From Lama glama (Eukaryota): 64,000 nt of DNA. The notes under the pieces were generated by a model, which ran no database searches, had not been told where the DNA came from, and was given only the letters and a program-made list of their open reading frames with translations. Each line of letters opens with the position of its first letter. Position 1 is the stretch's first letter. The stretch spans positions 4,588,001-4,652,000 of the forward strand of contig CM052828.1 of assembly GCA_028534125.1 (NCBI GenBank), in the 5' to 3' direction. Both the position numbers and the translations under genes were made by a program. This document shows positions 2,388 to 39,550 of this stretch, piece by piece.

Positions 2388-5300
2388 AAGATTTAAAAAA
2401 AGATGCCAGCATTTAAAAAGAAATTTTAGCACTGTAATAATGTCATTCAACAGATATTTGAACATATGTACTCTGTTTAAGAGAGATTCCTCTTATATAC
2501 AAAATAGAAGAATGAAGAAATGTCAAGAATGAAGAAATGTAATATGAACACTGGGTTCTGTTCCTGGAGCCACCGCTAGCCAGCTGTTGACCTTGAAAAA
2601 AAAAATCCCTCAACTGCCCTGGGTGGATATTCTCATCTCTGAAGCAGTAGACTGAGTCCATGAGGCTCCATCTAGGCTGCCAATCTATGTGTCTGTGAGA
2701 GGAGATCTAAGCTCTCAAGGAGCTGCCAATCAGGTAGGAGCGATAATCAGACATGGCTCACAGGCCTCCAGCTTCTCCAAGACTGATGGGAAATCCCCAG
2801 GAATTCTTGACCCCGCCCCTCGACATCCGCCCCAGCAGCAATGCAGGAAATCCAGTCCACTATCTTCAGCAGACTCAATGGAACCATTTCCTTAATGAAA
2901 CCACCCCCCCCACCGCGGTCCCAGATACTAAGCCGGAGGCTTTCCTTTCAAGCCCTCCCTCCATTACCCCATTCCTCCCGTTTCCTTCCCCTCCCTCAAT
3001 CTGGTATAAAATCCAGCACTTTAATCAGCAGCGTGCAATTTCCAAGGCACCCAAGTGTGCGAGGGATCAGCAATGATCCTGGGAAGCATCTGGCAGGGGA
3101 TCGTGTCATCCTTCACAAGCCTCACCAGTATACCGAGCCCAGTGGAATGGAATGGACTGTTCTATTAAATCATTTAAGTCAAATGCAACAGATGCTTCTA
3201 ACCATTCCTAATGACACATTTTTACTTAAAAAAAATAAGGTCTGGTGTTATTTCAAATGTCCTTCCTCCTCTGTCCACAGTGACAAATGCTCTGCAAAGT
3301 GATGATATTTACTTGATATCCAACAAACTCCTGACCGTGCAGCTGAACCAAGACCCTAACACCAGCCAGCTCTGCATTTAACACCCAAGTACCAAGAGAG
3401 CTTCTATCACTCTCTCTCCACTCTCATACTCACTCGAATACACGTCTCAATTTAAAGCGCCACAGAAACTACTTACTCTGTTATTTGTCCTCACTTTGCA
3501 AATTCCGAAGCCAGAGTAAACATCAGTCATAACTTTCCAATGGATTGAGTAACATTCCTCAAGGACACTGCATTTCTTTTCATAGATACAAAAGGAATTT
3601 TGGGGGCAATGTATCATTTTCAATTTCTATATTATATACAGTCAAAGTAGATTTAGAATATCTCAATAGTTTCAGGAGGAACAAAGGGGTTATTTCATTG
3701 GTTCTAAAAAGTCATAAAAAATAGACTGAATTTTAAATAAAACGGTTAGTATCTTCGTTGAAATCTGAAACTCTTTTAGACTTAAGTTATTTGGGAATTC
3801 AAGTGAGCACTCATTAAAAAGAAAACAAGAAATGCACACGAGCATAAAATGAGTGGTATCCTTAGAAGAGATGATGTAACTGGAGTTATAAAGTAGATTC
3901 TCCTTCATAGAGTTACACATTCTGTTAGTAAACAAAGCTCAAGATAACGTTTACTACTGGTGTGGGCAAACTCTTAACAATTTAGCTCTTGCAACCCAAT
4001 AAAGAGCAAGGAGATGGGGTGGAATCAGGTGCATTCCACTAGTGAAAGAACAAATAACACACTGATTACTGAGAGCAAGGGGAACCAGTTCATCCTTCCA
4101 GCCCCAACTCTGGCATCACTGGGTTATCATCCATCCCATATGCACTGCAGTTAGGGGTGGGCGGCAAAGAGACACTCAGTCAGTCTATTTCTTGGAATCA
4201 TTTATCGAATTTTTGAGTTGGAAAAGGCCCCTAGTAATAACCATCTTGCTAACGTCTGAATTTTACAAATGAATACAAAACAAAAACTCCACTTAGTGCT
4301 CACTAGAAAAGAAACTGGATAGTCCACTAGAGAATTCTCAACAGGGAAAGGAAAAAACTTCATAAATAGATAAGGCTCCATCATTTGGAAAGCTACGTGG
4401 AGGGCTATGTAATTAACATTTCAAAACACGCAATTCCAAAAAACACAACAAAAAAACGGTGGCTTCATAAACCTTGGGGAAAACAAAAACTGTTATACAG
4501 TAAAATGAGCTTGAGAGATTTGTGACATTCATTTTGGAAATGAGTATTTTCGTGTACATTTTGATTTAACCTTATGTTACTAATTAGACTTCCCTCACAA
4601 AATTTGCAAGTGGGGCATTTTCAGTGAGTTATAGCAAACTGTACGTGTCAGTTGCTCCAAAGTTCAAGAAAAATGGGAGCAGACAAAAAGGGTCTGTGGC
4701 TTTAATCAAGGGTGTGGTGCCTTCAAAGTAAGAAAATGTGACTTTGAGCTGGAGAAAGGAAGGCTGGTATCCTTTTGAGAGGAAGAGACTGCAATACAGA
4801 GGTCTTGGAAGTATCTGAATTATTGACATCTTTTTATTTCCCAAGACATTTGGAAGATGGTAAATATACTCTTTATGGGGAAATGCATTATCTCTTTGTG
4901 TTACTGAACCTCTGATTATTTTATATCTCAGTGCACTGTGCATACACAGTATTAATAACACATAAATATTATATAGCACCCGACAGTGAGCAGACCTGGC
5001 CCGTGATGAGTGCATGTCGACTCCTTGTACAGGGCAGAAACTTGGCCCGTCTGTACTCCACTCCCCAGACACGCAGCCCCTCCGTTGAGCCTGAAAGCTC
5101 TGAGGCAACTTAGAAAGCAGGTGGCTGACTGTTTCACGGGAGGCAGCAGTTAACTGATGGCAAAAGCCTGTGGTTTACAAAGGCTCCATTTGCAATTACA
5201 AACCCCAGCTGCTGATAGAACATTCCCTAAACCCGCAGGTGAAGGAGTTCTCACCTTGACAATGTTTTGTCTTGCTTTCTCCCTGTAACACACATGTAAA

Positions 5301-7096: not shown

Positions 7097-7413
7097 GGTG
7101 AGCGCGACGCGGCCTGCCCGCCCGGTGCCCGCGCTCCTCGCGGGCGCCCGCCGCAGCCGCTCGAGCCTGTCTCCTCTCGCGCCGCCGCCGCCGGCCCCGC
7201 GCTCCGGCCCTACGCCCCGAGCGCCCCTCTCCGCGGCTCCAGCCGGAAAGACAGCCACTTCCCCCCGGTAATCCTCGCAGCCCGGCGTCCTCTGGCCGTT
7301 GCGTTCCAGCTCCGGAGCCCGCTCCGAGCTGCTGCCGCCGCCGCCGCCGCCGCCGGGGAGGAGCCTTGAGGAGCGTCCGCCCGGCGCGCTCCGAGCCTCC
7401 AGCGGATCTCGAT
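7097..7413 (-). other. FLT1: FLT1 5' UTR (exon 1), TSS inferred at ~7413
   Basis: Minus strand begins ATCGAGATCCGCTGGAGGCTCGGAGCGCGCC, like the human mRNA 5' end, 26-31 nt downstream of TATAAA. GC-rich, no upstream ATG. Confidence 0.85.
7328..7354 (-). repeat. (GGC)7(AGC)2 trinucleotide tract in FLT1 5' UTR
   Basis: Plus strand GCTGCT(GCC)7. Confidence 0.95.
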
Positions 7414-7427
7414 TAAGAGGAGCCGAG

Positions 7428-7437
7428 GGCGGGGGCA
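7428..7437 (-). promoter_or_regulatory. Sp1/EGR1-type GC element just downstream of TATA
   Basis: Minus strand TGCCCCCGCC: GC box intact; EGR consensus CGCCCCCGC has one mismatch. Confidence 0.65.
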
Positions 7438-7438
7438 A

Positions 7439-7444
7439 TTTATA
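7439..7444 (-). promoter_or_regulatory. FLT1 TATA box
   Basis: Minus strand GGTTATAAATT; TATAAA at -31..-26 from the inferred TSS. Confidence 0.9.
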
Positions 7445-7460
7445 ACCTTTCCCCCCACCC

Positions 7461-7467
7461 ACTTCCT
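7461..7467 (-). promoter_or_regulatory. Proximal ETS site of FLT1 promoter
   Basis: AGGAAGT on the minus strand at about -54..-48, the position of the known essential ETS motif. Confidence 0.85.
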
Positions 7468-7487
7468 ACCCCGGCACCTCCTTCCAG

Positions 7488-7495
7488 TGACGTCA
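7488..7495. promoter_or_regulatory. CRE/ATF site of FLT1 promoter
   Basis: Perfect palindrome TGACGTCA at about -82..-75, matching the known FLT1 CRE. Confidence 0.92.
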
Positions 7496-8349
7496 AGGGG
7501 TCCCCCACCCCTCATCCGCCTCCCCAACTACCCTCTTCCTCCGGGACCTGATTCCCTCCAGCTCCGGAGGGGGAGGGGACCGCCGGGGGCGGGGGAGGGA
7601 GCGTGCATGGGGAGGCGCGGGCGGCGGGGCCCCGCAGGGCCGCCGGGCAGGTTCACGGCTCCTGCTCCCGGCTTCTGCCTCCTCCCCTCCCTCCTTCCTT
7701 TAGCTCTCAGGAAATCCTTGCAGTCTCCCTCCGCCCGGCTTACTCAGCCCTGGGGGCCGCCCGAAGCTGGGAAGGGGACAGGGCTGGACCTCCACCGCCC
7801 GGCCCCCGGGGCGGAAAGTCCGACCCTGGGAAGCTGGCTGCGCCTCCGCGACGGTGTCCTTGGCACGGAGGGGCGAGGCGCAGGCCGGCTCCCTCCCTTT
7901 CCTTGCTCTTCCCGCGTTGTCCCGCCGCCCCCCGACTCCCTGCGACTCTCCCCAGACGTCTAGGAAGGCGCCGGACACCCTTGGCACAGGGGACTGCGCC
8001 AAGAGCTCCCGCGGGGACCGGACGCTCGGCTGGCACCTTCGGGAAGAGAGCGAAGCCTCTCAGGTCCCTGGGGAGCGCGTCTGTGGCTTTTTCGGCCGCA
8101 CATATGCACCCGCCCAAGTCATTTCCTAACCTCTCCGCTTCCTAGAAGCAAAACAAGCAATAACATCATGATACCTTTTAAAGGGCTGAAGCATGAAGCT
8201 GGTCCTTCAACTTTTAAGGGCCGAGCACTTGAACTTTATTTTCTAAGTGCTCGGAAAGAATCTTTCTGGTGGCAGCTTGCTACGCAGAATGAGTGACTCC
8301 ACTGCTCTTCGAACAAAACCAGGTGAAATTAACATGAGGCCCTAGATCT

Positions 8350-8389
8350 TTTGCGATGACACTAATTCCACCTTGTTCTCCAATTACGT
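8350..8389 (-). promoter_or_regulatory. Orthologue of the FLT1 -976/-937 hypoxia enhancer, with variant core
   Basis: Minus strand TTGGAGAACAAGGTGGAATTAGTGTCATCGCAAAA aligns to the recalled human TTGAGGAACAACGTGGAATTAGTGTCATCGTAAAT at the same distance from the TSS. Confidence 0.75.
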
Positions 8390-11300
8390 CTCCATTACCT
8401 CGAAGGCTGATACCGTCCTAGGCTCCACGGAGTAGCCAGTCTTGTCCCTGTAGATACTGCCGGTTTGAAAAATAGTTCTGTTAGAACCTGACGGATGGTC
8501 AGAATGTGATGGCTCCTAAAAACAGGGCCAGCGACTTTTACTGAAGGGCTGGACTGCCCCACGTTTGGGAAGGTTTAGGCAACTTGAAGTTGCCACACCT
8601 CTGGGCGGCACGGCGAGGACAGGTCGTCCCGCTGTGCGCCTCACGCGGGAAACATGCGTCTGCGCACCTGGCGCTGGGGCCCGGGAGCCGCAACCCCACG
8701 CAGCTCAGATCAGGGGAAGACCACGTGGAGCTTTTGTGCGCCTGCAGGCTTCACCGCCTTTTTTTCTATTTTTCCAGGGCTCCTCTCCACTCTCCCTGGC
8801 TCCTTTTCTCTACTACCCCAGACTTAATCTTGCAAAACCGGAGGATCATTCCGTGAACACTTGAGTATGAATCTCAGGATTAGAGGCTGACAGCCCTGAT
8901 CTTTCTCACAATCGGTCCCCCATCCTCAGTCATATCCTGGGACACACGCGCAGAGCCGAAATGTTCCACTGCCTCACTTCAGAGCTGTCGTCACTCCGAC
9001 GCTCTCTCCCAAGAAGAGGCTGTCAGCATCGCCCTTCGGCAGCCCCTCACAGAGCCAGACATTGTGTTGGGACCGAAACCATTGTGATGGGAAGATGTCT
9101 TCCAAGGGGCTTAGAATCTGGAAAGGAGGTTGACCATAAGCGCCCTGGCTGACGTTGCAGTACGAGGGTCACGGTGCTGGAGGGAGCTTGGGTCCAAGAT
9201 AGGCAGAGAAGAGGCGGTCTGTAGTACAATCTACAAAAGTTTACTACAGCTCTTCAAATGCTATTTGAGCTACAACACTCCACTTACCTGCTGCATGAAT
9301 CTACATTGAGTTCATTTGTGAAGCCAGAACAGCTATATGGTGGACAGTTGAAACAATCTTCAGAGCCTCAGATGTCAAGCAACAACAGTAGCATATTGCT
9401 CAATTATTTAAGGTTAAAAGAGTCCTGGTTGAATCTAACTTTACACCAAAATCATTCTGCACTAAGAGTGATCCTCCACAAATTCCCCAACTGTTCTTTG
9501 GAAAAGTTGCAGGCTTCTAATTATAGTCAGCAATTGCTTTACTACTTTTTCTTTTGTTAACTGCATTAGCCTCCTTCACAAAAAACTCAAAATGCTAAAA
9601 GTTACAAGGTTTTGTTTGTGATTTCATTTAGCTCGCATAAATTTTAGCATTTAGGTAGATGACTATCTAAGCTAAAATGATGGGAAATAAAAGTATGATT
9701 CTCAACCCTCCCCCTCCCTGCAAAAGAGATACGTTTGAATGAGAATGGGCTACAGCCCTCTTCTAAGTAAATCACTAACGAAAGGGGTTTTATAGATAAT
9801 AGTGATGGAAAAGATCAATTTCAACGTGCTTAGTGGGTATAAAAAGCTATTGAAGTAGACTAGCTGCTTGCTTCCTGCTCCCATACAAAAGAACATTTCA
9901 TCTCCTGCAAAACCAGACACTCTCTCTCGTTATCAGCTACAAACATTCTCTTGAGGATTCTTTCTAGTCCCTATTCAGAGGCACACTGTTGATAAAAACG
10001 AACAGCTTTAATATTCAAGAGTGAGAATAGTGTGGGCGCATCCGTGTGAGAGACAGAAGGGAACCCAGGGCCTCATCTTCCTACAGTGGACCAAGCGTGG
10101 AGCTGGTCAGCTTGCAGTCACTGGGGCTCAATCAGGACTTTGTTCCATGCACCCCCTTCTCTGTCCCCACACCAGGGGTTAGGTAGCTTCAGAGCAAAGA
10201 AAAACTGTAGTCCATGGCTCCATGCTGCATAGCATAAACACATAAGGTTGGGCACAAGAACCAAGTGACTTTATAGAAGTCTTCCATGTTATGTGAAAAA
10301 ACACTTCCTAGCGCATCTCCGTTTGACAGTTCAGGCTCCTAGCTCTAAGCAGCGCATGCTCACAGCTCCCGTGAGGCAGGCTCTGCTGAGCTCACCAGGC
10401 AGATGCACCTGTTCCCATTTCCAGATGCTGACAAGTTCTGGTGGCGTCCCTTGGGGGCCTGTGGGCGTGGACATGCTCCCTCTTGGCTCTTGCTTTAGCT
10501 CCACATGCTTCACCCAGCCCGTGACTACCTCCCTAGAGGCTGTGATGTAGACACTATACTTCTGTTACTGCAGCCCTAGATCAAAGGAGCCCTTCCTGTT
10601 GGCTCCTTGGTACCCTGGATGCCTGTGGGACTTTTTCTCGAGTTAAAAGCCCTGAGGCTCTTTCACAGGAGCTGTGGTCTGGCTGTACTGGATTAGTCAC
10701 AGCGTCTGACAACTCAAACTGCAGACCCTTATACACACTCTTATTAAACTTCTTGTTTGATTTAGTGCATCTTTCTGGCCTGTTGAAATCTTGCTCGTTT
10801 CCAATTCTGCCGTTCAATGCATTTTCTGTATGACCTGCTTCAAATTATTTCAAAACTTTGAAAAATGTGCCTTCTGTAGTATCAAAATGATTGACGAGGG
10901 CAGAGCTGAATGAATGAATAAAGGAAGGGAGGAAGGAAGGAAAGAAGAAAAGAAGGAAGGAAGGGTGAGAGGGAGGGAGGAATCCGTAGAGGCTGAGTAA
11001 ACCCAAGTATTCTTTGTGTCATTATCTCTAGATGTAGCTGCACCATTGGAGGCTGCACATTAGCTTAACATTTACCATGTCATTATTCAGGGATAATTGA
11101 TGGTCCTAGCAAGAGGAAACAAGACAGTTTAGTTTTATTCAAAATATTTTAGGAGAGTTTAAAAAAAAAGCCTAGACTGAGATCAACAGAGAAGACTGGG
11201 GCAGGAGAAAAGGCAAAACAGAGAAGGAACTAACTCCTGAAGGGAAAGCGGCTGGCCAAGGAAGTCTGCTCATCGTATTGATCATCTAACCAACAGAGGT

Positions 11301-13688
11301 AGCAGCTTTTCCCAAAGGTTAGTTTCATCTCAGCCTGGATCTGTCATTCCTGACTTCCTCTTCTTTTAAAGATATTACTTTTAATACACTGTTTTAGTGA
11401 GAAAACATTTTAGACAGATGAAAATGTTAAGTCTTTTTCTTATAGAGTGCTTTTTTTTCTGTTTCTATATAGCTTTCATAATTATTGTGTTTAATTGCTA
11501 TAAAATATTATCCTACTGCTGGACATTTCCATTTCACTGATATAAATAATTCCAAAATGAATTTAATTTGACACTGGAATGTCTTTAAGTCCATTAGGCA
11601 CATCCACAGACTCAGTACCCCTTCCTCTAATCCCCTTTCATACACCCCCCCCCAAATACTCTTGTCTCACTGGAGACTTGCACCAGCTTCATCCAACAGA
11701 AACCTGGCTAAGTAATCAGAAGAAAAAAGTTCATGTCTTTTTGGTGCAGAATCCACAAAATGCATTTGCTCATTCAGTAAACTTTTGTTTTTTGGTTTTT
11801 GGTTTTGTGTTTTTTGGGTGGGGGCACGGAAGCACAATCCTGGGTCAGTCTTGTTGAAATTAGTAGCACAGAAGATAGAATTATTGCCCTAGAAGGACTT
11901 AAAGTTTATTTGAGAAGGTGCACATTGAAACATTAGGAAACAGCTCTATGGCAATTAAAAGAGAACAAGGTACAGGCGTAAGTACTAAAAGGAATTATTA
12001 ATCACTGAATTGGGAACCGGATTGGAAGTTGTCAGCAGAGACGAGAAAGCATTCTGTGAAGGGGGCAAACCCAGGCAGCTATAGGGCGGGGGGAGAGCGT
12101 GGGGCAGAGGCAGCCAGTGGAGGAGGGAAGTTACCAGGGAACAGGAGGACAATTCTAGCAGGTAAGACTGAGGGACCCTGACTCCTTGGTAGGTAAATTT
12201 AGATGTGTTTCATCCTACCAGCCCTAGGAAGGGATGGTTTAGGACGGTTAGACTGGCCTACAGGGGATGAAAGGGAAGTGAGACTGAGACGCAAGGAATA
12301 AAGTATTATGAAATAAATTTATGAAGAAACAAACTATTAAGAGGCGATAGGATGGGGCCAGGTCGGTGATGGGAAGAAGAGCACAAGAAGGCGGGGTGGC
12401 TCTGGCTAGTAGTTCAGGGAAGGGATGGGGAGAGAAATTCACTTTGAGGCTGAGGTGAGGGAGAGAGAGGAGCCCAGGAGGACCCCAAGGTTCCAAGGAG
12501 GACTCTAAGGCTGCTGAGCATAGCCAGGAGGGGGAGGGGGAGGGGAGAAGAGAGGGGAGGACTTGTTGGTTTCAGCCAGGGTGAGGTGAGAGGGCATTTG
12601 CAAGCACCCTACTTTATTTTCCTGCTGGAGCCAAGACAGGGTTTAAAGTGATAGTCTGGTTCAGGCCCAGATACTTTAAGGAAGTAGAAATTCATCATCA
12701 GACTGCTGTCCCCTAACGCTAGACCAAAATCTTCAACACAGAGAACGTGTGAGTTTTAGGTAATGTCTGGGCTCTGATTAGGAAGTTTATGAAAAGCCAC
12801 GAGTTGGATTTCCACCTCTGAGAAAGGAGGGGTGAGAGCAGCAGAGCTCACCACCTTCAGCCCTTCCTCCTTCCAAAGATCCTTGAGCTCCAGACAGAGC
12901 CTCCGGGCAGGTCTGCTGGCAGCTTGGGTGGAAGACCAACCCTTTCCTTCCTGCATCTCTTCCAGACTCCTCCCAGACGTACTTTTCATGCGTATCAGCA
13001 GCAGCAGCAGAAGTCATGGAGAAGCCCAGCCACTCTCTGCCCCAGACCACAGGCGCATCTGAACCAGAAGTCAGCCGGAATGCAGGAACGCGGCCCCGGA
13101 ACTTCCCAAGGTGCAAAATCTGGCATTTGTAAGAAAGATAGACCCCCAAGCTCACCTGATCCAACTGTGGAGGGAAGAGTTCAGTATAATAAGTGGCTTT
13201 AGATTTCTTCTGTTGAAAAAATAATATTCCATGAAATCAACTTCTGACTATGCTAAGAATACTGCTTCCAATTATTCCCCGAAAGACACATCATAAGCTG
13301 CTTTCCACTAATTTTTAGACGCTAAATGCCTTTGCTTCTATAATTTTATAACAAAATTTCTTCAGAACACCTGCAAAAATATCAGAATCATTGCTTCATT
13401 TTTGGGCATATATCCCCTGTTTATCCACGTAAGAGAGAAAAGTTAATGTCAAGATATGGTAAACAAATCTCAGTTTTAGACATAAAAGATATCAGTGTCC
13501 AAAGCATCAAGTCAAATGCTAGCGTAGTTTTTCTTGGTGCAATTTAAAACTCAGCCAAATCATACTTCATTTAATTTTATTTAAAGAAAATATTTTATTT
13601 AAATAAAATTCCCTTTCTTCACACCCTGAAGTAATCAGAGTGATAACATGCCTGACACGTGCTTCAGAATCATCCAAGAGGTTTACGT

Positions 13689-13941
13689 AAACTGGGAGTT
13701 CGAGATTTGCAGATACACACTACTGTATATAAAATAGATAAACAAATTTATACCGTGTAGCACAGGGAACTATGCTCAATATCTTGTAGTGACCTATGAC
13801 GGAAAAGAATATATGTATGTATATATGATGGAAACCTTATGCTGTACACCAGAAATTGACACAACATTGTAAACTGACCATACTTCAATTAAAAAAAAAA
13901 CCACTTTAAAACAATCTAAAAAACAAAAAAACAATCAAAAA
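13689..13941 (+). mobile_element. 5'-truncated L1 3' UTR (artiodactyl/camelid type)
   Basis: GGGAGTTCGAGATTTGCAGATAC...TAGCACAGGGAACTAT...GCTGTACACCAGAAATTGACACAACATTGTAAACTGAC plus polyA; AGAAT(C/T)ATCCAAGA in both flanks. Confidence 0.88.
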
Positions 13942-15183
13942 AGAATTATCCAAGAAGAGTAAAGAAGAAACTAGACAGGCCACATGTTAATGTTGTAGCT
14001 GGGTCATGGATATAGAATTTATATATAATTCTTTCTTCTATGTTTAAAATATTTTCTCGATAAAACACATTTTTCTTTCCTAGTCTAAAATTGAAAATGC
14101 AAACCATCAGCCCAAAGCCAATTTTAGGATCTGAGCCTAGAAAAAAGTGACACTGGAGAGGAAAGAGGTACAGTGAATGTTCCCTGGTGACCAGAGCTTT
14201 GGTTTCACTGACAGCCATGAGGACCTGTGTCTTTCCCTGCGTTTTCAGCAAAAAGCCCAGTGTTGGTTGATAAAGAGGTGTGAATAGGTGTAAAGCAATC
14301 ACAAGGGAAACAACTGATGGTTTGAAAAATACACGTGATTCAAAAAGTACTGCTGTGTACAGAAGTAACATGGATGAGCAGAAACAAGATCAAGAAGGAA
14401 AAATAAGAAAGAAAATAGGAAAATTCTGTAAAAGAAGAATCAAGGAAGAAATTCTGTCTATAATGGAGAGGAGGGAAATGCACAAACTTTGAAAATCATT
14501 TTTCTTCTCCATCGTGTTTATTTCGAAATTGTGGCGGGTGATCATTAACTAAAGAAAGTGAAATTTGGGGTGAAAGGATAGAAACCCACGCTTAATCATC
14601 TCATGGAATTAAGACTTTAAAAGCTATGTGTTAAAAAAAAAAAAGGATTTGTTGGCAAGCATCCTAGGAAATTTTAGGAACAGAAAGACAATGCTGCAAG
14701 ACCATTGGCCATTTGTTTCTAGAACGTGTAAAGTAGAGAAGTTCCAATGGTTGGAAAAAGAGAGATTTCAGAACACTGGGGAAAATAAAACATAGACTCA
14801 TAAAATACTAGTGTACAAACAAACCTCATGGATGATCTAGTCCAACCACCTGATTTTATTTTAAAGAAACAGGCAGAGAGATGATACGCTTTGCTCACAG
14901 TGAGCCTGAGACAGAAGGACCTGCTTGGCTGATAGCTGAGACTCCCCCACCCCTGCAGCCCCCCAGCCCTTCTGGTCTCTTCGTATTAAGCCTATTAGAC
15001 ATAAAAAGAGAGCTGGTTCCTAAAGACCCGTTGCTTCATCCACCAAGTCAGCATGAGATGATCTGACAAATCAGTGGAAGGAAGGAAAGTAGGAAGGATT
15101 TGCCCACAGGTCAGGTCAGATCTCAGTCAGGTCAAGATCACCCACTTTGGGCAGAAGGTCACCTGCACTCAGACAGCAGCCTA

Positions 15184-15290
15184 GGGGGTGTGGGTATAGC
15201 TCAGTGGTAGAGTACCATGCTTAGTATGTACCAAGTCCTGGGCTCAAGTCCCAGTTTCTTCATTTAAAAAAGAAAAGAAAGCAAAATAAA
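15184..15290 (+). mobile_element. Camelid tRNA-derived SINE
   Basis: GGGTATAGCTCAGTGGTAGAG A-box, degenerate B-box, A-rich tail. Confidence 0.85.
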
Positions 15291-16860
15291 GCAGAGAGCA
15301 AAGAGCTTCTATGGATATAGAGGGGACGTGTGCGGCTTCTCGGGCCAGCCCACCCCGGGCTCTCTGCCTCTTACTGGATATATTACCTGGAGCAAAACCA
15401 CTTAACCTCTAGCTCAAGATGTGTTCCTCACTCTGCATAGCAGAGGTGATGACATAATAATAGGTTGCTGTGCAGATTCAAAGAGAAGTCTAGAAAATCA
15501 TTTATAATAGTGTCTGGACCAAAATAAACACTGAGTTAGTGTCAGCTAAGGTTACAGTAGTGATGTTTGTTTGGCATGACCCCCTGCATGCTCCCTCACT
15601 AACTTTCTTTCACCTAATCCCATGGCCCACCACAGTGTCTGCACTTACTAGCCTGGTCCCTAAAGGGTAGACCCACTTCCCTTTACCCTAGAGCATCCTT
15701 TGAGATGCTGCCTCCTGCCTGACTTCACGTGTCCTAGGATGCCGAGAGCCTCCAGTAGCCACCCTCATCTTCTAGACCAGAAGGCCTGTCCACTGACACC
15801 TCACCCTAAGAAGCTGCTGGGCATCATGGCCATCCCTGCAAGGACCAGCTAAGATGATCACATTTCATTGTTCCCTTTCCTCTCCATCCTGCCTGGTCCA
15901 GCTGCCCATCCCCTCTCTCCATGGGCCTCTGCTACTGAAGTTCCAGCATCAAACCCTAAGCTTTTGTAAGAAAACTCTGCCCCTTTAATAAGCAAAACCT
16001 TTGACCCACCGAGGTTGGCAGGGGCACCTTGGTGAGGGTCCCCCCATCCTCCTCTTAACCCAAAATCTCCTTTCCTGAGTTTCCCACTCATCCCACCACG
16101 GAGCTGGTGTTTGGGGGCCCAGGGCTGCCCCGCAGCATTCCACAAGCGTGGATAAAAGCTTCCTTTACCTGCCATCAGTAGAGCTGAAACCGGCCGTGAC
16201 TGTTATCAGGACCCCAAGAAAGGCTCAGATAGGAGAACAGTGGATGCGGCCCTCTCCGCCCACCAGATGTTCTCCTCTGGTCCCCATTCAATCATCCCAA
16301 TGATCTGGCTGACCAGGAAGAAGGCATAGGTAAAGACCTTTAAAAGAAACCAAAACACTGCTGTCCTGCCTGGACCTCCTGTGGCCACCATTCCTTCTGT
16401 CTGGCTGGGCAAGCTGCAGCCTGCTTTGACCTTTGCTTATTCTTGCACTTAAAATGCTCCCACTTTAAAAATAGTGGAGGAAGAGGAAGAATGCCTAGAA
16501 CTTGGTAGGCATACTCACCATTCCTGAATGGCAACAGGAAGTCTGCTATACCCTGGCCCCCAGACGCACATTTCAAATGACCCCCTAGTGGGTCCATGTC
16601 ACCCTTGGTTGGTAAGTGGAGGCCAGAGTGTGTTTTTGGTTATGAATATCCTATTATAGTTTATAGAATTAAAGATAGAAAGGGATGCCATTTCAATGCT
16701 CTTGAGGAAACATCCCTAGGACACTAAAAGTGAGACAGGTATGTGTGTCCTGCCATCAGAGGGAAGAAGAATGCAAACAGAACAAGCTTTAGAAGCAAAA
16801 CACAAAGACAGGGGTTTGATATGAAGAGACTCCTTGGCTGGTTTAAAAAGTCAACCTTGA

Positions 16861-17300
16861 CTAAGTGAAAGAAGCCAATCTGAAAAGGCTACATACTGTA
16901 TGGCTCCAACGGCATGACATTCTGGAAGAGGCAAGACTACGGAGACAGTAAAGATATCAGTGGTTGCCAGGTGCTGGGGGAGGGACAAATGAGTAGCGGA
17001 GAACAGAGGACTATAGGGGCAGTGAAACCACAATGACGGCTACATGTCATTATCCATTTGTCCAAACCCACAGAATGTATGACACCAAGAATGGACCCTA
17101 ATGTAAACTATGGACTTGGGGGGATCGTGTGTCAATGCAGGTTTACCAGCTGTAAGAAATGCACCACTTTGGTAGGGGCTGTTGACAGTAGGAGTGGCTG
17201 CGGGCTGGGGGTGCCCGGGGGTAATGGGAACTCTATCATTTCCACTCAACTTCGCCGTGAATCCAAAACTGCTCTAAAAAAAAAAAAAAGCCTATTAAAA
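16861..17300 (+). mobile_element. L1MC1-like 3' end
   Basis: CTAAGTGAAAGAAGCCAATCTGAAAAGGCTACATACTGTATG...GTCCAAACCCACAGAATGT...CCTAATGTAAACTATGGACTT...AAAACTGCTCT-polyA. Confidence 0.85.
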
Positions 17301-18029
17301 ATTTTTAAGCCTATTTTAAAAAAGTGAACTTTCATCCTCTTGATTCACCAGTTTGTGGGTATTGCCAACTTGACTCTGCCCTTTTTTTAGCATTCACGGA
17401 AATCCGAGGCCTAATTTCATTCAGTATTTCCCAGTGTCTGCCCAAGAGGGACGACCAGGTATTACTGCCATAAAATTTAAAAGTTACAAAATGCCACTAA
17501 GTGTTTTTAAAAAAATTAGAGGGCATACGTGGGAAGTCACACGAATGAAAAGAGGAAAACAACCTGCAAGTGGTGATTAATTTAGCAACTTAAGGAAAAC
17601 AACTCCGCCGGGGACACAGCTGCACCGCCGGCTGAGCACACGCACTGCGACCCGGAAGCCATCCTGATTCACGCTCGTCTTCACGCCAATTCCATGTCGT
17701 TAGTAACGGTTACTCACCGCCTCATCTGTCTTGGGAATTTTCTTTTCTGAACATCCTTCATTTCATAAGCTCCTTTCCTAAGTTCGCTTAATATTTTCAT
17801 TTATAAAATTAGGAGAATGTAAAAGAATTTTTTAAAATTCCTGAGACAGAGTAGGCTTCAGCCCTCCACGATAGCGCTGAAGGGTTCTCAGAGCCCAGCT
17901 GAAGGCCAAAATGACTTGGTCAGGTAAACAAAGTGGCAGAGGAGGTGAGGGTGGTACAAGAAAGCTTCCAGTAGGCTTCAGAAAGGGGCGCCTGGATCTT
18001 CCTTTCCTGCCCTCCAGGGAGAGAGGATG

Positions 18030-18180
18030 CTTTGGATCCCACCTCTGAGCTGACCAGCAGTGTGATCTTGGTAAACGACGAAACTGCCCTGAGCCTCACT
18101 TTCCTGGCTTGTAAAACAAGGATTAAAAACTGCAGGCCTCCTGGGGTGATTGTAAGGGAGAGGCATAGATGCTTGACACA
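18030..18180 (+). mobile_element. MIR core
   Basis: TGTGATCTTGGTAA...CTGAGCCTCACTTTCCTGGCTTGTAAAACAAGGAT. Confidence 0.7.
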
Positions 18181-21100
18181 AAACTCTGCCATCTGCACAA
18201 GCTCAGTAGGGCTCCCCTGCTAAAAGGACTCATCTGTCATCCCCTCTGCCTGTATCTCTTCGAGATTTAAATTGTCAACAGACTGAGTCCTGTTGGCTCA
18301 GTCAAGTCCTTGGGGGGGGTGTCACAGGTGCACATGCACGCGTGTGCTTGTGTGCATGCACACATGTGAGCAGAGGAGTGTGCCAGTATATCTGATGCCT
18401 GAACGTGAACTCTGGCTTCAAATTGAAAAGAGCCTAGTTAAGAAAGGTGGCCAAAACATACATTCTTCGATTAGAAAGAAGATGACCACGTGCTTCTCTG
18501 CTGGCACCATTTATTTCATCCTGTCCTCTTCCTCAATCAGGGCTCTTGGAAGGAAAACAAAGAGGGCAAGAGAGAGGCAGAGGAGGCATTTTTATAGAAA
18601 CAGCACCATCTGCGTCAGGGAAGGACAGCCCTGCTGTTCTTACAACCCAGACTTAATGTAGGAAAGAGGCTGGTGGGAGATGGGGACGTGGGGCTGAAAG
18701 GTTTCAGGTGAGTTAAAAAGGTGTTTTCAACCCAAATGTATACCTAAGGCCAGGGACTGAGCACAGCTGAAGATCCATGACAAAGTCATTGAATTTTATC
18801 GATTACCATCTTTTATCCAGATGTTTTCTGTAATTAACTCATGCTTTAAGTAATATAATAAGTTTCAATTAGCCTCTGGATCCCAAACAGGGTAGAGCCA
18901 TTTAGAAATTGCTTATTGGCAATAAAAGATCATCATATTCCTCTTTAATGTTCATGTTTAAGATTTTAAAAGAATGTTTACTAAGGGTTAATGCTTAGAG
19001 TTTCTGTATTAAAGGTACCTTCTTTTCCACGTATAATTCATTAAAGCTATGCTCTACTCTTGGACTCAGTGACTCTTACTGTGGGCCAATCTAGCCACTT
19101 GAAAATCTAAGGCACCGCTGCTGGCCTGGTGGCAGCTTGCTTAGGATCTGAACAGAATATCCAGGAGAAAATGAACAGACTTGGAACCTGGGCTTGCAGG
19201 CTAACGCTTGCGAGGCGATTGCAAACATCACTGGGCATTTCAAGTCTTGTGATTCACGTTTCTGTGTTTTTTTAGCTGCTGTAACTGACTCTTGATTGAT
19301 ATTAAACAGTTAAACCTGTCTGCTTTCAGAAAGGTTCTGAGCTGTCATTGGGTCCATTAGGGCAATGGCCAGATACTTGGAATAAACTGAAACAATGAAG
19401 AGGGGAAAGAGGCCAGGAGGACCGTGCTGTGGACGCTCGTATGACAGAGGTGCCCACAGGTGACGGAAACCTTTAGTCCAAGCCCAGGAAATTTATCAGC
19501 AATGAGAACAGGAGCCTAAGACGAAGGAAAGGGATACCTGAAGATGTGCACAGAGCACCAGAGTAGGAAATCAGACGGACATACGTCACAGGAAGGAGCA
19601 GGCCAGGGGCTCTCAACCACGCCCAGCCTCCGGACAGAGCTGGAGAAAAGAGACGTGGCAACAGCCCTAAAAAGAGAAGATCACAGGCCGGAAACCAGGG
19701 TAGGAAGGACCAGATCAGAAGCCCGGGAACAGAGCAACAAATGGAAGGCAGAGGCGGGACACCCTAAGGAGCAAGAGAGGGCTGGTGCTAACTTCCTGAA
19801 TGAATTTCTTTCACGTAGACTTTACTTCATGGAGCCAAGGAACAGCTTGACTGGGATGTTTCAGAATCCACGAAGGGAAGAAAAGACTCCTCTGTAGCCA
19901 CCTACACAAGTTAAGCCGATGAGAACAGCCCACTGGAAGGCAAGAGATGCAACCACTCTGCCTCTGCCAAGGGGCCCCTAGATCCTCCCAGCAGAAGGTT
20001 ATCAAAGATGCTATGCAACTCAATAAGCCCTTGATTTACGTAGCTTATATTTGGGCTAATCCTTTTGTGAGAGGACTGGGTGGGGCAGGGGTCATGGGGA
20101 GCCACCTGCTTCTTGGCGGGCAGCAGGAAAGTGAGGTGGAAATGCCAACACCGTGTGGACCTGTGGAGCTTAAGGAATCAGAGCTGTTGCACACTGACAA
20201 CTATTTCTGTCGAAGAGAACAGAGGATTAAAACCTTTCACCATTTTCTCCTAGTTCTGAGCAATTCTTTTCCAAAAAAAATTTCTTTTCTTTCTAGTTCA
20301 TAGAGAATATAGCAAAGTTTTTTTTTTTTTTTAAAGGGTTGGTGATGGGGAAAGTTCAGTCTTAAATGTTTCTTCCATGAACAGGTTTGGGATGGCAACC
20401 TGCCTTTGCCTATGGTTGTCATTCTTCTAAGATGGATGTTTGCAAAACTGTCCTGTGCGGTGAGACCTCAAATATAAAATCACTCTTGGAGAAGGTCCTT
20501 CTCCACTGGTCCCTTGAAGCACATCCAGGGACAATGCAATTGGACAGCTGCCACTGGAGGGCATTAGACATCATTTAATTTGCTGCATGATGACTTTTGA
20601 CCTCTGCATTTGTTTTATGTGGGTCACCAGCTGGTTCTCACCGTCCTTATCAGACATTCATTGCCCTATTTCTAGGGGTAGGAAACTTAGATCTGCAGAT
20701 TCAAGATGACACTTTACGGGGCTCACAGCTAACTGGAACACAGATATATTAAAAAAAAAAAGTAACAAGGACAATAGGGTCAAAGCAGAGTGGCACCCTC
20801 TATCAAAAAGCCACAGCAACAAGGCTCTCAGGGGCCGTGAGCATTTTGCAGAAGCAACGAGGACCCTCCTCAGTGAACTCACGGCACCACAGGGGTTTGC
20901 ACACTCTGCTGCCGGAAGTCTCACCTCGTCTTGGCTAACCATAGGAGCAGGCCAACATTTTCATTCCTAAAGAGTGTTGAGCAATTAGATGCACCCAATT
21001 TATATCTTCCTAGGGACTGCTCTATCTATGTCTCCCCAAATTTATTCCTGTAGACCGCAAGCTATAGTCTCTTTTCTAAGCTTATAAATAAAATAATATA

Positions 21101-22559: not shown

Positions 22560-23013
22560 TTTCCCTTCCAAACAGAAGGGGCGCAGGAGGGCTGTGAGCC
22601 TTGGCACAGCGGGTCCTGACAGCCCCAGCGGGAGGGTCACTGCCGAGACATCCAGCCCCATCTCATTGTTCAGCTCCGGGAGTTTCCTCCTCTGGCAGAG
22701 ACCTGGAGCCGTGAGCTGAGCGGGAAGGGGACGGACCCGGGCGGGACTGCGGGGTGGCTATTGCTGCCGCTCCTTCCCCTCTCCGGGAGCTCGGGTTTCC
22801 CGGGGTGNNNNNNNNNNNNNNNNNNNNNNNNNNNNNNNNNNNNNNNNNNNNNNNNNNNNNNNNNNNNNNNNNNNNNNNNNNNNNNNNNNNNNNNNNNNNN
22901 NNNNNNNNNNNNNNNNNNNNNNNNNNNNNNNNNNNNNNNNNNNNNNNTGATGGGGGAAGGACGCCTGAGAAAACAGACCTTGGGCCGCCCTTAGCGTTTG
23001 ATCTTTCCCCGTA

Positions 23014-23071
<58 letters not shown>

Positions 23072-24080
23072 TGTGTGGTGGAGGGGTGTCAGGCTGGTAG
23101 AGACGGGCACTGCCCCTCTTTCCGTCCTGCCTTCGCTTCCCCGGCGCGCTCCTAACGATGGCAAGAGACCTGGCCCTCCAAAACACCCAGGGGACAAAAA
23201 GAAAAAGGGACGGGAAGAGAAAAGGACGGAAACGACAAGAAAGGAAAGGAGAAGGGAAAAGACAAGACTCGCCCCCAAGTCGCCCTATGGGCTCATTTCC
23301 AACCCTCCACCGGCCTGGGTCACAGGCAGAACCGAAAGTTCCCAACCCTTGTCTCCACCCTGTGCCAACCCCGCTCTTCCAGTGAACCGAGTCCAGGGCG
23401 ATCCCACGCGGAGCGAACCCCACCGCGAGGAGTTGTCCCTCGGGCAGGGCTGACCGGCTGCTGCCTCGGGGCAGCGAGCGCCGCGTGCGCCCCGCCGGGT
23501 GCGCGCCGCGCCGGGGTGGCCCCCGGGTGGCCCCCGCCCCGCCCCCGGCCCGCGGCGCGCGGCCGTCTGGTTAATTGCACCTGGGCGCCCCGGGGTCAGA
23601 GCCGCTGCCTGAGGACACGTTGCTACAGGCTGCAGAGGACGCGGGTTCATCCCAGCACCCAAATGTAACCTCCCCGCCCTTCTCCCGCTCACGTAGCCCG
23701 GGGTTTCGGGACGTGAAGTGCCGGCGAGGAGGCGGCTCCGGCCACCGCATGGGCTGGGCGATAAACAATCTCACAGGATACACAACACGCTGGACTGTCA
23801 CAAGTCCCTCGCAGGAAAAGATAAATAACATCTGAGGAGCCGCAGCGCAGCCTCCCCGGGGCCAAACAAAAACCCTGGGAGAAGTAAGTAAACAAGAGGA
23901 GGGGAGTTCACCCAGCCTCCGCCGCGGAGAAACCAGATGCGGCGCCCCTCCCCGGGCTCTCCCTGCTGGGGGTCGCTTCCACTGGAAGCCAGGACAAAAC
24001 AAAATCAACCCCACACGCGGTGCCAACTTTGTCCTTTCACCCGATTGGCAATGGTCACTTTCCGGGTAACGAGCGAGTTT
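22560..24080. promoter_or_regulatory. Orphan CpG island ~16 kb upstream of FLT1 TSS
   Basis: CpG-dense, core 23390-23760; GC boxes from 23532; no recognisable CDS; includes an N gap and a (TG)n tract. Confidence 0.85.
23017..23070 (+). repeat. (GT)27 microsatellite
   Basis: Perfect dinucleotide run. Confidence 0.95.
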
Positions 24081-25599
24081 CCTGGGCACTGGAGGAAACC
24101 TTTCTAGAGCAGGGGTTGAGATGCGCTGGGTTTTCTGGAAGAAGAGGCCGAAGAATTTCCTGAGGAAACAACTCTCTTCCAAAGGTTTGCTCCTTGGGAT
24201 CCTAGTTGTCAGCTATCCTCACATCTGTGGTTCCATCTTGACTTCCTATAAACACTTCACCAGATCAGAGTGGGAGAGGGAGCTGGAATTGAGACAGGAA
24301 CAAAATCCAAACCTGAGAACTACAAACGCTCGGTGAAATGGCTGTTGAAAATGCACACCTAAAGGTCTCACCTTTCTCCCAACTGCAGTTTGAGTGCCTT
24401 CAGTGCGGGAGCCAGATCCAGACCTCTGGGTCAGTGCTAAGCACCTTCTGGGCTTCCTCCCTCCTCCCCTCCTCCTGCAAAAACTTAGCTAGCTCTAGAC
24501 TGCCAGTCTTCACAGCCCAAGCGGAACCTCTTAAGAAGTCCAGCTCCAGGCTCGTATTTCCAACAGCCCCTTTCACGCTGCCCAAGGTATATTATTTGGA
24601 ATCCGGATTAAACCTAAAACACAATTTGATTCACTGCTTACACACCTATTTACCTATTTACCTGTTGATGTCAGCTGGACCACTCTAGGAGCTCACTCCC
24701 TACTGCGTACTAGGATCTTTTCAGTAATCTTTACATCCATGTAAATATAAGTTTATGTGATGTTTTGAGATCAGCGAAATGGGATGAGGACAGTTGCGTG
24801 GGGGGTAGTGAGTGTGGGCTGGCCAGTTACTAAATATAACTCATAGTAGACTGAAGTCCTCGTCCCTCTGAATGCTCTGACCCCTAGCTCAGCAGGGACG
24901 CACAGACACAGTGTACCTAGATTTCCAGATGTTCTTCAAGCTTTCTCATGCCAGCCATGTGGGCGTAATGGAAGCATCTGGGTTGGATATTGGCACAAGT
25001 AGATAGGTCAGTGGTTGGAAGACAGAACACACAGAGCTCTGGTGAGAACGCTGAGGGACTCTAACGGGAAGCTTTCACTGTAGTCCAACACAACACACGC
25101 ATCTCCTGTGGACTATGAGCGCCTCTCAGAAGCAGCCCCATTTCTGATTCATCTTTGCATTCCCAGTGGCTGGCCCAGCACACAGAACATAGTAGGCACG
25201 TGACAAATATTCATTGCTGATCAAAGGTATTATGGATCTGCTTATCAAATATGGAGGTGTCACAAAATTGATATAGTAAACATAATTGATTTTAAAATCA
25301 GGGTCACCCAAAGTCCAAGCAAATGGGAGCAGTGGGTGAATTGATTATGAGAACATATAAGGTCTCTCTCGAGTCTCCCAAACTTTGATTCTGCACATAC
25401 AGGTTGGGGAAGGTAGGACTCCTTAGCCAGCCACACAGATGAAAGCTGATGGTAAATTCAGTGTGAGGCACCAGAGACCTCTGTCTCAAAAGTGACCTTT
25501 GACTGCATTAAAAGTAAGTAGAGGCTCTGGGTCAGAATCTACTGTGTGTGTGCTGGGCGTATGGAGCTCTGGGCTCAGTGCTGAGCTCCCCAGTCTGGG

Positions 25600-38672: not shown

Positions 38673-39550
38673 CTTCCCTTTCTCTTGGGGTCCAGGCACT
38701 TGGGTGCAGACATGGCCAAGTTCAAGAACCACACCACGCACAGCCAGTCTTGAAAATGGCACAGAAACGACATCAAGAAACTCTGACCACAAAAATGTGA
38801 GCCTCCTAATGGGATGGGCCCCAAGTTTCCGACGAACATGCGCTTTGCCAAGAAGCACAAGAAGATGGGCCCAAGGAAGATGCAGGCCGTGATGCCAGTG
38901 CCACGAGTGCAGGTGTCAAGGCTGTCAGGTCCTCGTAAAGGCAAGAAGGCCAAGCCCAAGATTGCAAAGGGATCAACAAGTGCAGTTGACTTACCTACAT
39001 TGCAGACCCCAGACTCGGGAAGCCTGCTGGTGCTGCATCACCCCAGGAATCAGGCTCTGCCGGCTGAGTCTAAGACCGAGGTGCAAACCAAGGCCCAGCT
39101 AAACCTCCTGCTCCAGCTCAGCTCCTGCTCCTGCTCCAGCTCAGCTCCTGCTCCTGCTCCTGCTCCAGCTCAGCTCCTGCTCCTGCTCCAGCTCTTGCTC
39201 CTGCTCCTGCTCCAGCTCCAGCTCCTGCTCCTGCTCCAGCTCAGCTCCTGCTCCAGCTCCAGCTCAGCTCCTGCTCCAGCTCCAGCTCCAGCTCCAGCTC
39301 CTGCTCCAGCTCCAGCTCCAGCTCCAGTTCCTGCTGAGCTCCAGCTCCAGCTCCTGCTCCTGCTCCAGCTCCAGCTCCTGCTCCAGCTCCTGCTCTACTT
39401 CCACCTCCCAAAAGTGCCCAGGCCACCACGATGGCTCAGAGCGGCACCTCTTTCTGCCAATGTGAGGGTAGAAGGACTGATGTGACCCCTGGGCTGCTAG
39501 TTGGGCTGGTCTCCTCCTGTGCTATTTGTATAAATAAACCTGAAGCAGGA
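38673..39550 (+). pseudogene. RPL29: Processed pseudogene of ribosomal protein L29 (eL29)
   Basis: ATG at 38712 reads [57 protein letters not shown] versus RPL29 [59 protein letters not shown]. TGA stops at 38751 and 38784 (Arg positions, CGA>TGA type); intronless; TOP-like CTTCCCTTTCTCTT 5' end; RPL29-like 3' UTR with AATAAA at 39533-39538. Confidence 0.96.
39105..39395 (+). repeat. (CTCCWG)n hexamer tandem repeat inside the RPL29 retrocopy
   Basis: About 290 bp of CTCCTG/CTCCAG units with occasional CTCAG 5-mers. Confidence 0.97.

What the first reader, a model, noticed from the sequence alone, without database searches (positions are those of the whole stretch)
8350..8389. FLT1 hypoxia-response element orthologue lacks the HIF core (AACGTG > AAGGTG)
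Seen: at exactly -976..-937 from the inferred TSS the minus strand reads GAACAAGGTGGAATTAGTGTCATCG. Knowledge (recalled): the human/mouse FLT1 hypoxia enhancer at this position is GAACAACGTGGAATTAGTGTCATCG, and HIF needs RCGTG. The base at 8372 destroys that core while the immediate flanks stay conserved, and it is a transversion rather than ordinary CpG decay. Inference: direct HIF induction of FLT1/sFLT1 (a VEGF decoy) may be lost or relocated in this lineage, which matters for camelid hypoxia physiology.
Basis: partly seen in the sequence, partly recalled or inferred. Interest (0 to 1): 0.7.

Follow-up and report, generated by a model that had tools for sequence, protein, structure and literature searches.

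The report
Camelid FLT1 hypoxia motif broken
In this genome, likely a South American camelid, the DNA about 960 bases upstream of the blood-vessel receptor gene FLT1 lacks the low-oxygen switch motif reported at the matching place in human and mouse, but that motif's role is disputed even in human cells, so this is likely ordinary drift rather than an altitude adaptation.

Summary
The base is real in the assembly: the minus strand reads AAGGTG at 8374-8369, G at 8372, single copy. Published human FLT1 primers bracket the site, so it is the positional counterpart of the human -966/-962 element; the core lies at about -959, not exactly at the human numbering. No read covered 8372 and no other mammal's sequence could be obtained, so 'camelid-specific' is untested. 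The functional premise is weak: a paper read here reports no hypoxia induction from this human element and cites no HIF binding in a gel shift, against two older positive reporter studies seen only as citations. Five other RCGTG sites lie 190-580 bases upstream. Two human oestrogen half-sites in the same kilobase are also gone, while TATA, CRE and ETS remain. Neutral loss of such a CpG motif is expected (44-98% in a rough model). Verdict: likely neutral turnover of a dispensable motif; a real camelid regulatory loss is not excluded (about 15%). Interest 0.2.

The parts
8350..8389 (-). Positional counterpart of the human/mouse FLT1 promoter hypoxia element (about -935 to -975 from the inferred start at 7414)
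   Evidence: Sequence; bracketed by human bisulfite primers; numbering
8369..8373 (-). AGGTG where the HIF core RCGTG is reported in human; no RCGTG on either strand in 8330-8410
   Evidence: human core position from PMC8633902
8372..8372 (-). The differing base, G on the gene strand; only one copy of this 21-mer in G000 when this base is left free
   Evidence: no read coverage
8385..8390 (-). GACGTA 16 bases upstream: contains ACGT but is not RCGTG on either strand
8357..8397 (-). Flank cores that could be kept for other factors: TAAT at 8397 and 8386, GGAA at 8369, ATTA at 8366, TGTCA at 8361 (consensus cores recalled; short, expected by chance)
   Evidence: function not tested
8560..8564 (-). 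ACGTG (context AAACGTGGGG), nearest intact HIF-type core, about -1150
   Evidence: presence in human undecided: the human primer fits either 3 substitutions or one 3-base gap (my reading)
8642..8949 (.). Four more intact RCGTG sites: 8646(-), 8701(-), palindromic CACGTG 8722-8727, 8949(-), in a CpG-rich stretch called at 8401-9100
8292..8304 (-). Counterpart of human ERE1 (-902): last 8 letters match, GGTCA half-site absent
7924..7937 (-). Counterpart of human ERE2 (145 bases below the p53 half-site): GGTCA half-site absent
7488..7495 (-). CRE, TGACGTCA, intact
7462..7467 (-). ETS site AGGAAG, counterpart of the human -52/-49 site, intact
7439..7445 (-). TATA box TTATAAA
7033..7096 (-). FLT1 exon 1 coding part (64 bases, signal peptide), followed by a GT donor at 7032-7031

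Best explanation
The camelid FLT1 promoter has AGGTG where an RCGTG HIF core is reported in human and mouse, and this is likely neutral turnover of a weak, dispensable motif, so hypoxic control of FLT1 would be little changed. Shown: the base, its position in the counterpart of the human element, the absence of RCGTG there, five intact RCGTG sites 190-580 bases upstream, and loss of two other human distal half-sites with the core promoter intact. Inferred: that the ancestral base was C; that HIF cannot bind AGGTG (from the established RCGTG consensus); that hypoxic induction runs through HIF-2 at other sites, as proposed for human trophoblast, and through RNA processing; that the change drifted to fixation at some unknown point between the laurasiatherian stem and this species.
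For: (1) The human element failed direct tests: reporter -1629/+8 not induced by hypoxia or DMOG in BeWo cells while endogenous FLT1 was; the authors conclude other HREs act; they cite Camenisch 2001 for no HIF binding in gel shift and no reporter induction. (2) Turnover is normal in this kilobase: 2 of 2 human ERE half-sites are absent at their expected places, while 3 of 3 core elements (TATA, CRE, ETS) are intact. (3) With human mutation rates for this context and branch lengths of 0.12-0.22 changes per site (recalled), an unconstrained RCGTG survives with probability 0.02-0.56 across 9 of 9 settings, so loss is the usual to even outcome. (4) C>G at this CpG is 2.2 times as frequent as in the same context without CpG; the region has CpG o/e 0.67-0.72 against 0.28 further upstream, and if transitions are damped 3- to 10-fold there, transversions make up 24-51% of hits on the CpG. 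(5) RCGTG is common: 146 strand matches in 64 kb.
Against: (1) Two reporter studies (Gerber 1997, Takeda 2004) are cited as showing an HRE about 1 kb upstream in both mouse and human; Gerber was not held, Takeda was not looked up, and Dutta 2008 on ETS1/HIF-2 at this gene was not held. (2) If human and mouse both keep the core, neutral survival over 0.5 changes per site is only 0.00-0.09, which argues for constraint in that group. (3) The negative data are from a choriocarcinoma line and in-vitro binding, not endothelium, and used no core mutant. (4) This exact change is the rare kind: 1.8% of hits on the CpG genome-wide, 4-10% if transitions are damped. (5) If 24 of 25 letters do match human as recalled, the flanks are more conserved than neutral (0.0007-0.09). 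(6) No orthologue from camel, pig, cow, whale or horse was obtained, so age and spread are unknown. The rates are human, the branch lengths recalled.
Confidence: 0.6

Rival explanations
1. Relocation: HIF input is kept but has moved to the RCGTG cluster at 8560-8949 (nearest AAACGTGG at 8564, palindromic CACGTG at 8722-8727), which made the old site redundant.
For: 6 strand matches (5 sites) in 8413-9413 against 2.3 +/- 1.5 in 500 shuffles (share reaching it 0.034), and 1.7 +/- 1.3 in 8400-9000 (0.006; interval chosen after looking). The stretch is CpG-rich, so likely unmethylated and bindable.
Against: Over the whole 2 kb the count is 7 against 4.2 +/- 2.1 (0.136); 7 of 106 fixed 600-base bins in the window hold 5 or more matches. 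Whether these sites are new is unknown; the human primer does not decide it for 8564. The human -1629/+8 fragment, which spans the matching region, was not hypoxia-inducible. CACGTG is also a MYC/USF site (recalled).
Confidence: 0.17
2. Real functional loss: the site is a working HIF-2/ETS element in endothelium of most mammals, and camelids (or only the Andean ones) lost it, blunting hypoxic induction of the VEGF decoy sFLT1, possibly favoured at altitude and in pregnancy.
For: Core reported in both mouse and human with positive reporter assays (as cited); HIF-2 drives FLT1 in endothelium and trophoblast; genome is likely a South American camelid, a group adapted to altitude; a GGAA core abuts the site.
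Against: Negative binding and reporter data for the human site; no selection signal at FLT1 seen in what I read (0 occurrences of FLT1 or VEGF in the main text of PMC7331169; 0 of the 30 listed camelid-hypoxia papers mention FLT1); a transversion is no sign of selection; nearby intact cores remain; lineage restriction not shown.
Confidence: 0.15
3. Assembly error or a private variant of the sequenced animal.
For: No read covered 8372, so it is not excluded.
Against: Only one copy in G000 with the base left free, although this assembly holds near-duplicate small contigs at other loci, which I read as alternative haplotypes; 10 of 11 reads laid on 7800-9800 were at least 95% alike; per-base error in such assemblies is low (general knowledge).
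Confidence: 0.05
4. The change matters as a gain: CAAGG or AACAAG creates a site for another factor (NR5A/ERR-like or SOX-like), or the conserved unit was always a homeodomain/MEIS/ETS cluster in the flanks with the CpG a passenger.
For: CAAGG at 8375, TAAT at 8397 and 8386, TGTCA at 8361, GGAA at 8369 (consensus cores recalled).
Against: Cores of 4-5 letters occur by chance every few hundred bases; the match to the recalled NR5A and SOX consensus is imperfect; no motif scoring or binding data.
Confidence: 0.03

Closest known systems
Human/mouse FLT1 promoter HRE (Gerber 1997; -966/-962 in PMC8633902)
   Same: Same place in the same promoter, bracketed by the human primers; core about 7 bases off in numbering.
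   Different: No RCGTG core. The human element is itself disputed: positive in two cited reporter studies, negative in BeWo reporters and a cited gel shift.
Human FLT1 ERE1/ERE2 half-sites and the -677 p53 half-site SNP (PMC2858160)
   Same: Short, experimentally described distal elements in the same kilobase that a single base makes or breaks; both ERE half-sites are also absent here.
   Different: Different factors; the p53 site exists only on a rare human allele, so it is not a fair comparator and was left out of the 2 of 2 count.
Transcription-factor binding-site turnover in mammalian promoters (general concept, recalled)
   Same: Loss of a short CpG-containing motif with similar motifs nearby and an intact core promoter.
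   Different: No cross-species occupancy data here, so turnover is inferred from sequence only.
HIF-pathway changes proposed for altitude-adapted mammals, e.g. EPAS1/EGLN1 variants and the HIF1A bHLH truncation claimed for alpaca and other cetartiodactyls (PMC6560271 passages; bioRxiv 10.1101/386987 abstract)
   Same: Would act by damping a HIF response in an altitude-adapted group.
   Different: This is one target-gene motif with no selection or expression evidence; the HIF1A claim itself covers lowland relatives too, a warning about lineage specificity.

Membership tests
Hypoxia response element (HIF site) | RCGTG core | tested here: not met
   AGGTG at 8373-8369; no RCGTG on either strand in 8330-8410. 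Consensus.
Hypoxia response element (HIF site) | HIF ancillary sequence a few bases downstream (pattern recalled) | tested here: not met
   None within 20 bases below the studied site; 1 of 7 nearby RCGTG matches has one (8646).
Hypoxia response element (HIF site) | HIF-alpha/ARNT binding in cells or in vitro | not testable with these tools
   For the human counterpart, cited as negative in a gel shift.
Hypoxia response element (HIF site) | Confers hypoxia induction on a reporter | not testable with these tools
   Human counterpart: negative in BeWo, positive in two cited studies.
Orthologue of the human FLT1 -966/-962 element | Same position in the FLT1 promoter, single copy | tested here: met
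   Human primers map either side; core at -959; single copy.
Orthologue of the human FLT1 -966/-962 element | Letter-by-letter alignment to the human and mouse element | tested here: inconclusive
   No tool returned those letters.
Lineage-specific adaptive regulatory loss | Change confined to the adapted lineage | tested here: inconclusive
   No orthologue from any other mammal found.
Lineage-specific adaptive regulatory loss | Fixed in the species (read or population support) | tested here: inconclusive
   0 reads over the site; no second allele among G000 contigs.
Lineage-specific adaptive regulatory loss | Change unlikely under neutrality | tested here: not met
   Neutral loss probability 0.44-0.98 in 9 settings (rough model, branch lengths recalled); neighbouring distal half-sites also lost.
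Lineage-specific adaptive regulatory loss | Altered expression or phenotype | not testable with these tools
   Needs hypoxia experiments in camelid cells.

The most novel reading that the evidence does not exclude
Andean camelids alone broke a mammal-wide HIF-2 site in the FLT1 promoter, uncoupling the VEGF decoy sFLT1 from low oxygen, so that placenta and vessels keep VEGF signalling at altitude: a natural one-letter edit of the pathway that drives human pre-eclampsia, and a ready test of whether the disputed human element works in endothelium.
Probability: 0.08. Interest if true: 0.7.

Novelty: new variant of a known kind. Interest (0 to 1): 0.2.

Why it matters
If the loss were confined to altitude-adapted camelids and functional, it would be a single-base regulatory adaptation on the sFLT1 axis that is central to pre-eclampsia and altitude pregnancy, and the natural G allele would be a clean control for a 25-year disagreement about the human element. 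As things stand it is one broken five-letter motif of disputed function in one assembly. I found no report of it in the held library, which omits most subscription journals.

Tried and rejected
Orthologues from host DNA in public collections: metagenome scan gave 1 match, a chance 22-mer with no homology beyond it; viral contigs 70 matches to a 15-mer, longest alignment to the promoter 26 bases; prokaryote genomes 1 match, 24 bases only; plasmids none. Sequencing runs: one search, restricted to Hi-C libraries in the hope of a spread of species, listed only 2 runs, neither shown to hold the stretch; an unrestricted search might have given camelid runs and was no longer available. One run could be laid: 11 reads on 7800-9800, none on 8200-8536. 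Earlier scan findings: nothing near, by sequence or in relatives; 4 findings with the word FLT1, none about the promoter. Literature for the human probe sequence: 0 papers with the 12-letter flank; 3 and 10 papers with short motifs, none by title about the FLT1 promoter element and none opened. Primary papers Gerber 1997 and Dutta 2008 not held; three other recalled ids not held. Rejected: 'the 8564 core is a camelid gain', first suggested by three mismatches to the human primer, because one 3-base gap explains the primer equally well. Rejected: 'transversion implies selection'. Rejected: the p53 half-site as a turnover control (rare human allele only). The supplements of PMC2858160 (primer tables) were not opened, and one picture-only supplement of PMC11873275 could not be read; the former might hold human letters near -902.

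Full report
What is there. The window holds the 5' end of FLT1 on the minus strand: 64 coding bases of exon 1 at 7096-7033 (MVSCWDTGVLLCALLGGLLFT, then a GT donor), a TATA box at 7445-7439, an ETS site at 7467-7462 and a CRE at 7495-7488 (the gene name is recognised from recall and backed by human FLT1 primers landing here). About 930 bases above the TATA box the gene strand reads GAACAAGGTGGAATTAGTGTCATCG at 8378-8354, with G at 8372. There is no RCGTG on either strand in 8330-8410. The stretch is single copy in G000, and a 21-letter pattern with the disputed base left free finds that one place only.

Is it the counterpart of the human element? PMC8633902 gives bisulfite primers around the human HRE at -966/-962. 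Allowing for C-to-T conversion they map to 8563-8542 and 8246-8222 with 3 mismatches each, bracketing the site; the forward primer has one equally scoring chance match at 4079, the reverse is unique. Of a second human pair one primer maps at 7429 with 2 mismatches and the other finds no good match. The human and mouse letters were returned by no tool: the ancestral C and the conserved flanks remain recalled.

Which animal? Beta-globin exon 1 in G000 matches PDB chain 3gdj_B at 29 of 30 residues, far above the next entry (53.3 against 41.2 bits), and differs at position 2, Asn for His. From recall, 3GDJ is camel haemoglobin and Asn at beta-2 marks llama, alpaca, guanaco and vicuna. So the genome is likely a South American camelid, which keeps the altitude question relevant.

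Is the base real and how widely shared? Not settled. The one run search, restricted to Hi-C libraries, listed 2 runs, neither shown to hold the stretch. One could be laid: 2% of it gave 11 reads on 7800-9800, 10 of them at least 95% alike, none over 8200-8536. Searches for mammalian DNA in metagenome, viral, prokaryote and plasmid collections gave only chance short matches (1, 70, 1 and 0 hits). Earlier findings of the scan had nothing on this locus.

Was the human element a working switch? The evidence is split. For: Gerber 1997 and Takeda 2004 are cited as showing an HRE about 1 kb upstream in mouse and human by reporter assay, and HIF-2 drives FLT1 in endothelium and trophoblast (passages of PMC6255857; PMC10952167; PMC2858160 repeats the claim). 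Against: in BeWo cells a -1629/+8 human promoter reporter did not respond to hypoxia or DMOG while the endogenous gene did; the authors conclude that other HREs act, and cite Camenisch 2001 for no HIF binding in a gel shift and no reporter induction (PMC8633902 passages and section 23). A further paper places HREs both at the promoter and at a candidate enhancer about 30 kb upstream (PMC11873275 passages and supplement passages), mouse Flt1 has several distal enhancers (PMC10192733 passages), and in human microvascular endothelium hypoxia lowered sFLT1 by RNA 3'-end processing with membrane FLT1 unchanged (PMC3133880 abstract). I read none of Gerber, Takeda, Camenisch or Dutta 2008 directly (not held; the other two not looked up).

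Is the loss surprising? Using human rare-variant rates for the assumed ancestral context (PMC6138700 Supplementary Data 1 rows), the CpG pair mutates like 16 average sites. With branch lengths of 0.12-0.22 changes per site (recalled) and CpG transitions at full, one-third or one-tenth rate, an unconstrained RCGTG survives with probability 0.02-0.56 in 9 of 9 settings. But it is 2.2 times commoner than C>G in the same context without CpG, the region is CpG-rich (o/e 0.67-0.72 against 0.28 at 9500-20000), CpG islands damp transitions about threefold, and with 3- to 10-fold damping transversions of any kind make 24-51% of hits. More basically, any change to the CpG breaks the motif, so selection for loss would not prefer a transversion (inference). 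The same model cuts the other way for human and mouse: joint retention over 0.5 changes per site has probability 0.00-0.09 without constraint, and 24 unchanged flank letters, if recalled correctly, 0.0007-0.09. Something in this stretch is probably constrained; it need not be the HIF core.

An internal control. Human FLT1 has two described oestrogen half-sites, at -902 and 145 bases below the -677 p53 half-site (PMC2858160 passages). Their counterparts lie at about 8304 and 7937; the neighbouring letters partly match but GGTCA is absent at both, and the gene strand has no GGTCA in 7400-8700 (one on the other strand at 8497). So 2 of 2 other distal human motifs are also gone, while 3 of 3 core elements are intact. 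The p53 half-site was left out because it exists only on a rare human allele.

Relocation? Five intact RCGTG sites (6 strand matches) lie at 8564, 8646, 8701, 8722-8727 and 8949. That is above shuffles in 8413-9413 (6 against 2.3 +/- 1.5; 0.034 of 500) but not over the whole 2 kb (7 against 4.2 +/- 2.1; 0.136), and 7 of 106 fixed 600-base bins in the window hold 5 or more. The human forward primer seemed to show that human lacks the 8564 core, but a 3-base gap explains it equally well with the core intact (my reading), so it is undecided.

Mechanism and verdict. Most likely (0.6): a weak, dispensable HIF-type motif was hit and drifted, at an unknown time; hypoxic control of FLT1 would run through other HIF-2 sites and RNA processing as in human. 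Relocation to the upstream cluster 0.17; true functional loss 0.15, of which the Andean-only adaptive version is about half; error or private variant 0.05; gain of another site 0.03. The site is not an HRE by the defining core; it is the positional orthologue of a reported one. I found no report of the change in the held library (0 papers; 0 of 30 listed camelid-hypoxia papers mention FLT1, of 100 found; no FLT1 or VEGF in the main text of PMC7331169). Other papers seen: PMC6160690, PMC6560271, PMC4309431 (passages), bioRxiv 10.1101/386987 (abstract). One alignment column across mammals would decide most of what is open. Interest 0.2.

Noticed in passing
window 38787-39100 (+), frame open to 39485: Decayed RPL29 (eL29) copy, likely a processed pseudogene: best PDB match E 1.2e-8 over residues 2-68, followed by a low-complexity repeat; no Pfam hit.
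   Followed up: partly
window 23001-24200: A second CpG island about 16 kb upstream of the FLT1 start. Mouse Flt1 has a described enhancer at -16 kb; correspondence untested.
   Followed up: no
window 8292-8304 and 7924-7937 (-): Both human oestrogen-receptor half-sites (ERE1, ERE2) of the FLT1 promoter are absent here.
   Followed up: partly
window 7334-7354 (-): Seven GGC copies in the FLT1 5' untranslated region.
   Followed up: no
L004 926-1018 (-): Adult-type beta-globin exon 1 with Asn at position 2 in place of the His of PDB 3gdj_B, the change linked from recall to high oxygen affinity in South American camelids.
   Followed up: partly
G000 small contigs, e.g. C582125 and C582087: Near-duplicate short contigs carry globin exons at identical coordinates, likely alternative haplotypes or collapsed paralogues in this assembly.
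   Followed up: no
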